Shown piece after piece: positions 860 to 3,528 of a stretch of 13,125 bases of DNA. Position numbers and translations under genes: made by a program. Position 1 is the stretch's first letter. Every line of letters begins with the position of its first letter. The DNA lies in IMG/VR virus record IMGVR_UViG_2585427787_000002; one strand, 5' to 3'. This DNA is from a virus. Lineage: Duplodnaviria > Heunggongvirae > Uroviricota > Caudoviricetes. The notes beneath the pieces are model-generated. The model worked only from the letters and a program-made list of their open reading frames with translations, had not been told where the DNA came from and made no database searches.

Positions 860-3528
860 GCTGAGGCCAATACCCGCGACATAATGTTTGCCGTCTTTGG
901 TCTGCTCAATTTTGACGCACTCTGGTCTTCCAGTTTCTTATTGACGGTCTGTGTGATTTCATTGCTGACATCCGTAATGGATGTCCTGATTTCAGCCAGG
1001 TCAGCCGCAAGCTGACCGTTATCAATCTGCGTCCACAGCTCCTGAGCCAGATGGGTTTTCCCTATCTCGCCTTTGAAAAAATCCAGATAGCCGGATGCGT
1101 CATCACTCGGCTGACCGACGGCCTCCACGAATGCCGATTTGCCAACGGTGTTCACACTGCGAACGTAAAAATAATAATCATGGCCCGGTTTGATATTGAT
1201 ACTGGCGGCTATCCAGTACAGCGCCGTGCCAAGATAGCGGGCTGTGGTTTCAACCTGCCTGATATCCGCAATCCGCTTTTCCGAGAACCAGAACTCAAAC
1301 TGTACCGTCGGATCATAAACGGCAAGATGCGGCGTGGCGGTTATCTGAAAATAGCCCGGCGTCAGCTCAATCCGCGACGGCGCTGCCGGTGCGGCAATCC
1401 GGAACGATACCGACGCCGGATCGCCCTGCTGCCCCCAGGCATTTACTGCCCGGACTGTCAGCCTGTAGTTCCCCAGCGCCAGTTGTGTGAAGCGGTAAGT
1501 GGTTTCCGTCGTCCGGGCCGTGCTGACCAGCCGCTCACTGCCGTCATCCGCTGCCACGGTCAGGCGAAGCATAAAGCTCACCCCCTTCACCACCTTCGGC
1601 GTGTCCCAGCGCGCCAGCACCTGATATTCCCCGCTGTCTGCGGTGACTTCGGCAGTCAGGTGCTGCACTGCTGGCGGCGTGACACCATTCACCGTGCCGC
1701 TCTGGTCGCCGTCAAAGTGCGCCCCGTTATCCACGATGGCCTCTTTCTCCGGTACATGCTGCACGGCAGTGATGGCATACGTGCCGTCGTCGTTCTCACG
1801 GATACTCACGCAGCGGAACAGGCGCTGGCGCAGCGTCGGCAGCTTCAGCCCCCACACGCTGTATTCGGCAACGCCGTCAGGAACCCGGCTCACTTTCACC
1901 TTCACGCCGTCGGTGACGGACTGGACCTCCACGCTGACCGGACTCCCCTGCCCGTCAACCAGGCTTATCAGCGTGGTGCCGGAGGATGGCAGCGTGATTT
2001 CACGGTCGAGCGTCAGCGTCCGGGTCTGGCTGTTTACCGCCAGCACGCGCCCGCCGGTGCTGATACCGGCATAGTCATCATCGCAGATTTCAATGACATC
2101 GCCCGGTACATGGCGAAGCCCTTCGGCACCCACGCTGAAGTCCACGGTCTGCGTTTCCAGCAGCTCCGTTTTAATCAGCCACAGCCCGGCGCGGTGTGCC
2201 TGCCCCCGGCTGGTACAGCCAAAAGCATCCATCTTCGTGACGTTACGACCGTAACGGGCAATGGCCTGCGTATCTTCAACAAGCTCTGTCGCCGTCTCCC
2301 AGCCGTTATTCGGGTCAATCCAGTTCACCTCAACGGCATTATGGCGGTCCTTCAGGGCGCTGAAGCTGTAGCGGAACGGCGCGCCATCATCCGGCATCAC
2401 CACATTACTGCGGTTATAGGTCCACACCTTATCTGATGGTCGGTCCTGCACGAACGTCAGCGTCTGCCCGTTCCATACCGGCATACAGCGCATCGCCGAG
2501 CAGAAATCACTGAGCACATCCCACGCCTTGCGCTGTGTGGTCAGGTACGCATTACAGGTGATGCGCGGCTCCGTGCCGCCAAAGCCGTCCGGTACTGACT
2601 GGTCGCAGTACTGGCCGATGACATACAGCGCCCATTTGTCCACATCCGCCGCACCAAGACGTTTCCCCATGCCGTAGCGCGGATGGGTCAGCATATCCCA
2701 CAGACACCAGGCCATGTTGTTGCTGTATGCCGGTTTAAACGTTCCGTCCCAGATACCGCTGTATTGCCGCGTCTGCGGGTTATAGTTCGACGGCACCTGC
2801 AGAATGCGCCCGCGAAGATGATAATTACGGCTCACCTGCTGACTGCCGAACTGCTCCGAGTCCACCTGCACGCCGACCAGTGCCGTGTTCGGGTAGCACT
2901 GTTTCACATCGATGATTTCGGTGTATGACGACCAGAGCGTTTTGTTCTGCAACTGGTCTGTGGTGCTGTCCGGCGTCATCCTGCGCATCCGTATATTGAA
3001 CAGGCGCGGCGGCAGGTTATCCACCACCACCGAGGCCAGATACTGCGAGGTGGTTTTGCCCTTAATGGTGATGTCTTTTTCCGTCACCCAGCCACCATTA
3101 CGCTGTATCTGAACCAGCAGGCGGACTTCCGACGGATTCCGGTCCCCCTTTGAGGTGGTTTCCACCAGTGCCTGCACGCCGAAGGTAAAGCGCAGACGGT
3201 CGATGTTTGCAGACGTAATGGTGCGGGTGATCGGCGTGTCGTATTTCACTTCCGTACCCAGCACCGTCTCGGAGCCGGAGGATTCAAACCCCTCCGGCGG
3301 TGTCTGCTCCTGCTCACCGGCACGGAACACCACCGTGACACCGGAGATGTTGGTATTCCCCTCAGTGTCCAGCACCGGCGTACTGTTCAGCAGCACGCTT
3401 TTTAATCCATCCACCGGACCTTCAACCGGCCCTTCGCTGATGGCATCGATCACACTCAGCAGCTGCGTGGACTTCAGGTTGTCCTTCGCTTCGCGCGGGG
3501 TATGCCCCTTACTGCTGCCTTTACCCAT
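832..3528 (-). CDS. J: Host specificity / central tail fibre protein J, N-terminal 898-aa ORF, ending prematurely after an apparent frameshift
   Basis: N-terminus [34 protein letters not shown]... and most of the length match lambda J as I recall it. The frame ends ...[30 protein letters not shown], while the +1-offset frame from about 916 downward reads [25 protein letters not shown] (the lambda J continuation). The 113..3528 span is 3416 nt, not a multiple of 3. Confidence 0.92.

What the first reader, a model, noticed from the sequence alone, without database searches (positions are those of the whole stretch)
860..940. J is split by an apparent single-nucleotide frameshift
The 898-aa J ORF (frame A) and the 248-aa C-terminal ORF (frame B) are both J-homologous but offset by one base. 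Frame B is closed by a TAA at 938-940 and frame A ends at 832-834, so the shift must lie in 860-937. Frame B reads [12 protein letters not shown] (the lambda J continuation) from about 916, which puts the lesion near 915-937, in the minus-strand sequence cagagtgcgtcaaaattgag. Restoring one base would give an intact ~1138-aa J. As it stands, the phage would lack the C-terminal receptor-binding region on its tip protein, which suggests a defective or decaying prophage unless this is a sequencing or assembly error.
Basis: partly seen in the sequence, partly recalled or inferred. Interest (0 to 1): 0.6.

Follow-up and report, generated by a model that had tools for sequence, protein, structure and literature searches.

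The report
Out-of-frame hybrid junction splits J
The tail-tip gene J of this E. coli prophage really is split, not by one lost base but by an out-of-register join between two different versions of J, which is an ordinary dead gene or an assembly error.

Summary
On the minus strand, J reads in one frame from 3528 to a stop at 834-832 (898 aa). Its C-terminal part continues in the -1 frame to 113, and that frame is closed upstream by TAA at 940-938.

The "single-nucleotide frameshift" reading does not hold. The 200 nt left of window position 916 match a long "type A" J allele at 199/200. The 900 nt to the right, covering the rest of J, the terminator and the lom start, match a lambda-like "type B" J lineage at 899/900. 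The two lineages share only GCG (918-916) at the breakpoint.

The hybrid is 64 nt shorter than type A and 20 nt longer than type B, hence the frameshift. No hybrid of this kind was found in 5,426 complete E. coli genomes or in three contig collections. The exact 898-aa product is on record for this one draft contig only (JORH01000124.1, E. coli 6-319-05_S4_C2).

The truncated J keeps the hub, the Ig/FNIII domains and most of the alpha-helical shaft. It loses the central fibre and the receptor-binding domain.

I favour a real illegitimate recombination that made a J pseudogene (about 0.55). An assembly chimera (about 0.38) cannot be excluded without reads. Programmed frameshifting is rejected. 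Interest is low.

The parts
916..3528 (-). Type A part of J: codons 1-871 (Met at 3528-3526 to Ala871 = GCG 918-916). It holds the hub domains, FNIII-A, two Ig-like domains and most of the long alpha-helical shaft.
   Evidence: It is collinear with the intact 3480-nt J of E. coli BKQWHE (L006), with no other gap. The last 200 nt are 199/200 identical to the type A J of CP025856 (L024).
916..918 (-). Breakpoint: GCG, the only bases the two parental sequences share at the join. G916 is both the third base of the last type A codon (GCG, Ala871) and the first base of the first type B codon (GTC, Val).
   Evidence: Three-way comparison of the window, L024 and L023.
113..915 (-). Type B (lambda-like) 3' part of J. 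It encodes the central straight fibre and the receptor-binding domain, lies in the -1 frame relative to the 5' part, and ends with the stop at 115-113.
   Evidence: Window 918..1 is 99.9% identical to L023 (1 mismatch in 918), which is 899/900 in the register. It differs at 7 positions from E. coli 200177 (L022). Pfam hits are Phage_Tail_Tip and Ig_GpJ_C. The closest solved structures are 9wca and 8xcj.
832..915 (-). Out-of-frame tail of ORF A: 27 nonsense codons ([27 protein letters not shown]) and the TGA stop at 834-832.
938..940 (-). TAA that closes the C-terminal frame upstream of the join.
857..859 (-). First start codon of the 248-aa downstream ORF. It is simply the internal Met of ...[10 protein letters not shown]..., and no Shine-Dalgarno-like sequence lies at a suitable distance.
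   Evidence: plus reading the sequence.
1005..1005 (-). Private substitution (CCT to GCT, Pro to Ala) 89 nt upstream of the join. It is the only mismatch in the 200 nt left of the breakpoint.
   Evidence: All 14 type A or C comparators encode APDL where the window has AADL. The best of 3,581 matching E. coli records is 99.5% over 200 nt. The 30-mer is absent from viral contigs.

Best explanation
J in this contig is a hybrid of two J alleles joined out of register.

The first 871 codons come from a 'type A' J, the 1159-1165-aa kind with a long alpha-helical shaft. Everything from window 918 down to the contig end comes from a lambda-like 'type B' J lineage (1131-1135 aa). That stretch holds the rest of J, the terminator and the lom start. 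The two parents share only GCG at the join.

The most likely origin is one illegitimate, microhomology-level recombination in vivo between two lambdoid J genes. These could be co-resident prophages, tandem prophages or co-replicating phages.

The event joined type A's first AIQQIQ-coding repeat region to type B's KIEQTK-coding region. This is an out-of-register counterpart of the natural in-frame 66-nt 'type C' deletion at the same spot. It skipped 64 nt relative to type A and put the 3' part in the -1 frame.

The product is a J pseudogene. It encodes an 898-aa protein with the hub, the FNIII/Ig domains and a shortened shaft, plus 27 nonsense residues. The central straight fibre and the receptor-binding domain are missing. 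A phage made from this prophage alone should not bind its receptor or trigger DNA ejection.

Shown: the hybrid structure, the breakpoint, the frames, the domain content, and the absence of the junction from the collections searched. Inferred: that the join arose in the cell rather than in the assembler, the recombination route, and the phenotype.
For: - **One gap:** there is a single 64-nt gap against the closest intact relatives, and the rest of J is collinear.
- **Clean breakpoint:** 199/200 to type A on the left and 899/900 to type B on the right, with only chance-level identity to the other parent on each side. The whole 803-nt 3' part exists as one piece in natural J genes, up to 99.1% identical and 99.9% in L023.
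- **Three intact forms:** the DFFKG..IFMN cassette is 419, 335 or 353 nt in 18 comparators. The window's 355-nt cassette is the only one in a different frame.
- **Recombination-prone spot:** type C is an in-frame 66-nt deletion between CAGCAGAT repeats at the same place.
- **Donors are common:** E. coli genomes carry a median of 2-3 J-bearing loci.
- **Hard for an assembler to make:** a 3-nt overlap is far shorter than any k-mer or read overlap an assembler joins on, so reads probably span the join (inference).
- **A recent single event:** the other 14 genes called on the contig match the lengths seen in relatives.
- **Disrupted J is common:** L005 is annotated as frameshifted, L015 is interrupted by IS elements, and L023 is split into 655 + 479 aa.
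- **Structural placement:** the join corresponds to lambda J residues 864/865, the boundary between the alpha-helical shaft and the central straight fibre (PMC11101478).
Against: - The sequence is a 13,125-nt contig of a draft assembly, and its ends lie inside a capsid gene and lom. This is a repeat-rich region where misjoins concentrate.
- The junction was found in no other sequence. It is absent from 5,426 complete genomes and from three contig collections.
- The exact 898-aa product, and also the exact 1021-aa tape-measure protein, are on record for this contig only. There is therefore no independent confirmation.
- A private SNP lies 89 nt from the join. That could hint at a messy consensus.
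- No reads could be inspected.
Confidence: 0.55

Rival explanations
1. Assembly chimera. The strain carries two separate prophages with intact or differently arranged J genes, one type A and one type B. The assembler, its consensus step or its gap-closing step fused them inside the divergent cassette, so the frameshift does not exist in the cell.
For: - This is a draft short-read contig with both ends in conserved phage genes.
- The naming and submitter style match an IGS project that assembled 100-bp HiSeq reads with MaSuRCA. Applying that to this isolate is an inference, because it is not listed in that paper.
- The junction and the exact proteins are on record for this one contig only.
- Only 915 nt of type B sequence follow the join before the contig ends.
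- A private SNP lies close by.
- Most E. coli genomes hold several J copies, which makes assembly graphs tangled at this locus.
Against: - The parents share only 3 nt at the join. De Bruijn or overlap assemblers need tens of shared bases.
- A wrong path through a graph bubble would switch in the conserved flanks and stay in frame, not in the middle of the divergent cassette.
- Both flanks are clean up to the breakpoint (199/200 and 899/900). They are not the mixed consensus expected from collapsed repeats.
Confidence: 0.38
2. One reading: a single-nucleotide deletion or insertion, whether a mutation or a base-calling error, in an otherwise collinear J gene.
For: Formally, one added base restores a 1138-codon frame.
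Against: - No J allele is collinear with the window across the site. Type A is 64 nt longer, type B 20 nt shorter and type C 2 nt shorter.
- The sequence lineage changes completely at the breakpoint.
- There is no homopolymer longer than AAAA at the site.
- No A-left/B-right hybrid was found in 5,426 complete genomes. A hybrid joined in register at the conserved Met-Trp codons was absent from two contig collections.
Confidence: 0.02
3. The split is functional. Either a -1 ribosomal frameshift in the 937-835 overlap makes full-length J, or the 248-aa ORF is translated on its own and supplies the fibre and receptor-binding domain as a separate subunit.
For: - Going from frame A to frame B needs a -1 shift.
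- Two Z_ZZN tetramers lie in the overlap: A_AAA at 913-910, and A_AAG in CCA AAG just downstream.
Against: - There is no X_XXY_YYZ heptamer in the overlap.
- Tetramers without a stimulator shift at about 0.15%, barely above background (PMC4066793).
- The downstream RNA is no more structured than shuffled sequence (z = -0.08).
- The arrangement is conserved in no other sequence searched.
- The ORF B start is an ordinary internal Met with no ribosome-binding site, and it would lack the first strands of the fibre.
Confidence: 0.02

Closest known systems
Bacteriophage lambda tip attachment / host specificity protein J (gpJ; PDB 8iyk, 8xcj)
   Same: - It occupies the same position in the tail module, after I and before lom.
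- The domain series is the same.
- The 3' part aligns to lambda J 813-1131.
   Different: - It is not one reading frame.
- The N-terminal 871 codons belong to the longer type A allele family, and the C-terminal part to a type B family.
- The receptor-binding domain is closer to 'A8 gpJ' (9wca, E = 2e-134) than to lambda J (E = 2e-112).
Frameshifted or interrupted J pseudogenes of resident E. coli prophages
   Same: - The outcome is the same: a tail-tip gene that can no longer make a full-length protein, in an otherwise complete-looking tail module.
- Three comparators here show it: L005 is annotated 'frameshifted', L015 is IS-interrupted, and L023 is split into 655 + 479 aa.
   Different: The lesion here is a junction between two allele families, not a small indel or an IS insertion. 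This junction was found nowhere else.
Mosaic junctions of lambdoid phages made by illegitimate or relaxed homologous recombination (established knowledge of lambdoid phage mosaicism; not tested here)
   Same: There is an abrupt switch from near-identity with one lineage to near-identity with another, with only 3 shared bases at the breakpoint.
   Different: Mosaic junctions that survive in phage populations are in frame or fall between genes. This one is out of frame inside an essential gene, so it would be a dead-end product.
Type C J allele (in-frame 66-nt deletion between CAGCAGAT repeats; e.g. CP025856 1335817-1339248)
   Same: It is at the same place in the shaft-coding cassette, the missing segment is nearly the same, and the size is similar at 66 versus 64 nt.
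   Different: Type C arose within type A, keeps the frame and is annotated as intact in several genomes. The window's join is between types A and B and shifts the frame.

Membership tests
Lambda-type tip attachment protein J | N-terminal hub and FNIII/Ig domain series (FNIII-A_GpJ, Phage-tail_3, Ig_J, Ig_J_second) | tested here: met
   Pfam hits at E = 1e-40 to 1e-43 in ORF A.
Lambda-type tip attachment protein J | C-terminal fibre (Phage_Tail_Tip) and receptor-binding domain (Ig_GpJ_C) | tested here: met
   Both are present, but only in the -1 frame. They align to PDB 9wca, 8xcj and 8iyk.
Lambda-type tip attachment protein J | One continuous reading frame of about 1130-1165 codons | tested here: not met
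   The gene reads as 898 aa plus 248 aa (274 open codons) in two frames. Intact relatives are 1131-1165 aa.
Lambda-type tip attachment protein J | Position in the tail module between the I-like tail assembly gene and lom | tested here: met
   The gene order matches annotated relatives.
Single-nucleotide frameshift pseudogene | Collinear with an intact homologue except for one base | tested here: not met
   There is a 64-nt gap against type A. Cassette lengths are 355 nt versus 419, 335 and 353. The lineage switches at the gap.
Programmed -1 ribosomal frameshift site | Slippery heptamer X_XXY_YYZ in the zero frame within the overlap | tested here: not met
   Reading 937-835 in frame A shows only the tetramers A_AAA and A_AAG.
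Programmed -1 ribosomal frameshift site | Stimulatory RNA structure downstream of the slip site | tested here: not met
   The MFE is -25.5 kcal/mol against a shuffled mean of -25.3, z = -0.08.
Programmed -1 ribosomal frameshift site | Conservation of the two-frame arrangement in relatives | tested here: not met
   No other sequence carries the junction. All 18 comparators are in one frame across this cassette.
Recombinant (mosaic) junction between two phage lineages | Each flank nearly identical to a different lineage, with an abrupt breakpoint | tested here: met
   199/200 to type A on the left, 899/900 to type B on the right, and 3 shared bases.
Assembly chimera | No, or only aberrant, read support across the join | not testable with these tools
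   Reads of GCA_000713095.1 are not available here. The only indirect evidence is that the junction is on record for this contig alone.

The most novel reading that the evidence does not exclude
The join is real and is a freshly caught, not yet purged product of out-of-register recombination between two J allele families. It lies at a repeat-containing hotspot in the shaft-coding cassette, the same spot that produced the viable type C length variant. On that reading, this segment of J would be a recurrent breakpoint where shaft length and the fibre and receptor-binding module are reshuffled between lambdoid phages. This contig would show the failed outcomes that selection normally removes.
Probability: 0.3. 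Interest if true: 0.25.

Novelty: already known. Interest (0 to 1): 0.1.

Why it matters
It matters little beyond this genome. If the join is real, it marks this prophage as unable to make an infectious tail on its own. It is also a tidy single-event example of how lambdoid prophages decay through recombination with their relatives.

If the join is an artefact, it is a caution for annotation. The two GenBank proteins KEM37544.1 and KEM37543.1, named 'phage tail family protein' and 'fibronectin type III family protein', would be products of a misjoin.

There is also a practical lesson for this kind of scan. A split gene whose frames differ by one base is not evidence of a one-base lesion. Comparison with relatives is needed.

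Tried and rejected
1. **Short type B patch inside a type A gene, with two junctions.** The first alignments suggested this. I rejected it when the whole 803-nt 3' part, and then window 918..1, matched single natural type B lineages at 99.1% and 99.9%. There is only one junction within the contig.

2. **A 64-nt deletion from a pre-existing in-frame A/B hybrid.** No place in 5,426 complete genomes holds A-left and B-right together. A pattern for a hybrid joined in register at the conserved Met-Trp codons found nothing in viral contigs or genome contigs.

3. **Independent copies of the junction.** The 28-mer is absent from viral, metagenome and genome contig collections. Exact-protein look-ups of the 898-aa ORF and the tape-measure protein returned only this contig. 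The I protein is too widespread to lead to siblings.

4. **Finding the isolate in the literature.** The isolate name is not in the searchable papers, nor in the held supplements of the study with the same naming scheme. The assembler is therefore inferred, not shown.

5. **Programmed frameshifting.** Rejected.

6. **A BLAST alignment running 15 nt past the junction.** It looked like a fourth allele, but it is a chance resemblance between type A GCAATTCAGCAGA and type B TCAAAATTGAGCAGA. In one search my coordinates for the L006 row were wrong, so that row should be ignored.

Full report
**What the window is.** The 13,125-nt window is the whole of contig JORH01000124.1 of the draft assembly GCA_000713095.1, Escherichia coli 6-319-05_S4_C2. 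It carries the minus-strand tail module of a lambdoid prophage. Reading along the minus strand, the order is:
- a capsid gene cut by the contig end, then the Z-, U- and V-like genes;
- G and T, the tape-measure gene, then M, L, K and I;
- J, a terminator, and the first 45 nt of lom.

The best complete-genome relative is 98.9% identical over 99% of the window.

**The observation.** It is confirmed.
- ORF A runs 3528..832 (898 aa), with its stop at 834-832.
- ORF B runs 859..113 (248 aa). Its frame is open back to the TAA at 940-938.
- Frame B reads [12 protein letters not shown] from GTC at 916-914.
- ORF A contains FNIII-A_GpJ, Phage-tail_3, Ig_J and Ig_J_second. The frame-B piece contains Phage_Tail_Tip and the Ig_GpJ_C receptor-binding domain.

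**What the lesion is.** Against the intact 3480-nt J of E. coli BKQWHE, and against the J of the closest genome, the window's 3416-nt J has one private gap of 64 nt and is otherwise collinear.

The sequence after the gap at first looked like a short lambda-like patch. Searching the whole 803-nt 3' part then showed that it exists as one piece in natural J genes, at 99.1% in E. coli 200177. Window 918..1 matches an IMG/VR contig (L023) with one mismatch in 918 nt.

A three-way comparison settles the matter.
- The 200 nt left of position 916 are 199/200 identical to a type A J (L024).
- The 900 nt to the right are 899/900 identical to the type B J lineage of L023.
- Each flank shows only chance identity to the other parent.
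- The parents share just GCG (918-916). G916 is the last base of type A codon Ala871 and the first base of type B codon Val, which is why the downstream part sits in the -1 frame.

**Allele context.** Between the conserved DFFKG and IFMN codons, 18 comparator J genes have one of three cassettes:

| Cassette | Length | Note |
|---|---|---|
| Type A | 419 nt | long form |
| Type B | 335 nt | lambda-like |
| Type C | 353 nt | type A minus 66 nt, in frame, between two CAGCAGAT repeats |
| Window | 355 nt | A-left plus B-right; the only one in a different frame |

The sequence that follows the breakpoint in type A (GCAATTCAGCAGAT) resembles the sequence that follows it in type B (TCAAAATTGAGCAGAC). 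The join therefore looks like an out-of-register counterpart of the type C deletion.

**Uniqueness.**
- No place in 5,426 complete E. coli genomes covers 80% or more of a 121-nt junction-spanning query.
- The junction 28-mer is absent from the viral, metagenome and genome contig collections.
- A hybrid joined in register at the conserved Met-Trp codons is also absent from the viral and genome contig collections.
- The exact 898-aa protein is on record for this contig only.

**Structural meaning.** The join corresponds to lambda J residues 864/865. In the cryo-EM work on the lambda tail, residues 809-861 form the alpha-helical shaft. The beta-prism central straight fibre and the receptor-binding domain follow it, and rearrangement of these parts after LamB binding opens the tube (PMC11101478). 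ORF A therefore keeps the hub, the FNIII/Ig domains and a shaft lacking its last 21 or so residues. It loses everything that binds the receptor and transmits the signal. By inference, a phage relying on this gene alone would be non-infectious.

**Origin.** I favour a single in vivo illegitimate recombination between two lambdoid J genes, at about 0.55.
- Donors are plentiful, with a median of 2-3 J loci per E. coli genome.
- The other genes on the contig are intact.
- Disrupted J genes are common among the comparators: L005, L015 and L023.
- A 3-nt overlap is much too short for an assembler to join on, which implies that reads span the join.

The main rival is an assembly chimera, at about 0.38.
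- This is a draft short-read contig ending in repeats.
- There is no independent copy of the junction.
- The tape-measure protein is also on record for this contig only.
- A private SNP lies 89 nt upstream of the join.

The assembler is inferred from a study with the same naming scheme, which used 100-bp HiSeq reads and MaSuRCA. The isolate is not listed in that study. Without reads, the choice between these two cannot be settled.

**Rejected readings.** A single-base indel is contradicted by the lineage switch and the cassette lengths.

Programmed -1 frameshifting is also contradicted.
- The overlap has no heptamer, only A_AAA and A_AAG tetramers. Without a stimulator these shift at about 0.15% (PMC4066793).
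- The downstream RNA is no more structured than shuffled sequence (z = -0.08).
- The arrangement is not conserved in any other sequence searched.

**Verdict.** The split is real in the sequence and was correctly located. It was misdiagnosed as a one-base lesion. It is an out-of-frame junction between two J alleles, which makes it either an ordinary prophage pseudogene or a misjoin. Interest is low.

Noticed in passing
window 835-1110 (J cassette); L002, L024, L010: The part of J that encodes the alpha-helical shaft and the top of the central fibre is a discrete polymorphic cassette. It has three intact forms (419, 335 and 353 nt). The 353-nt form is an in-frame 66-nt deletion between two CAGCAGAT repeats, so shaft length varies naturally by 22-28 residues.
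   Followed up: partly
window 1005: There is a private Pro-to-Ala substitution (CCT to GCT on the minus strand) 89 nt upstream of the breakpoint. It is not seen in any of 3,581 matching E. coli records or in viral contigs. It could be a real private mutation or a consensus error.
   Followed up: partly
L005 3113-6592 (CP083701); L015; L023 4474-7868: J is also disrupted in three of the comparators, each in a different way. The closest complete genome has a J annotated as frameshifted, with a T6-to-T5 change in GGATTTTTTC and a second 1-nt indel about 540 nt upstream. One comparator has IS elements after codon 779. The closest type B relative is split into 655 + 479 aa.
   Followed up: no
window 113-560 (C-terminal receptor-binding domain): The receptor-binding end is closer to the solved 'A8 gpJ' chain (PDB 9wca, E = 2e-134) than to lambda J (8iyk, E = 2e-112). 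It differs from lambda across most of the last 130 or so residues, so its receptor specificity may not be that of lambda.
   Followed up: no
window 9303-9309 (minus strand), end of the G-like gene: The T-like gene lies in the -1 frame relative to the G-like gene. The sequence CCG GAA AAG TCC TGA at the end of G gives GGAAAAG where lambda has the G_GGA_AAG slip site. This is probably the usual G/GT programmed frameshift in a variant form.
   Followed up: no
window 70-94 and 1-45: A GC-rich hairpin (GGGCGCC...GGCGCC) followed by a T run lies after the J stop. It looks like an intrinsic terminator, at the position where phage Ayreon has an annotated one. The lom ATG is at 45-43, and the contig ends 45 nt into lom. 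The other contig end is inside the capsid gene. Both ends suggest contig breaks caused by other related prophages in the genome.
   Followed up: no
window 5922-8987: The exact 1021-aa tape-measure protein of this contig is on record in no other assembly among about 15 billion proteins, although relatives are 98-99% identical at the DNA level.
   Followed up: no
window 3589-4236 and 4134-4877: The I-like ORF called at 215 aa overlaps the end of the K-like gene by about 100 nt. Relatives are annotated either this way or with a 182-aa or 190-aa product that starts after K, so the true start is unclear.
   Followed up: no
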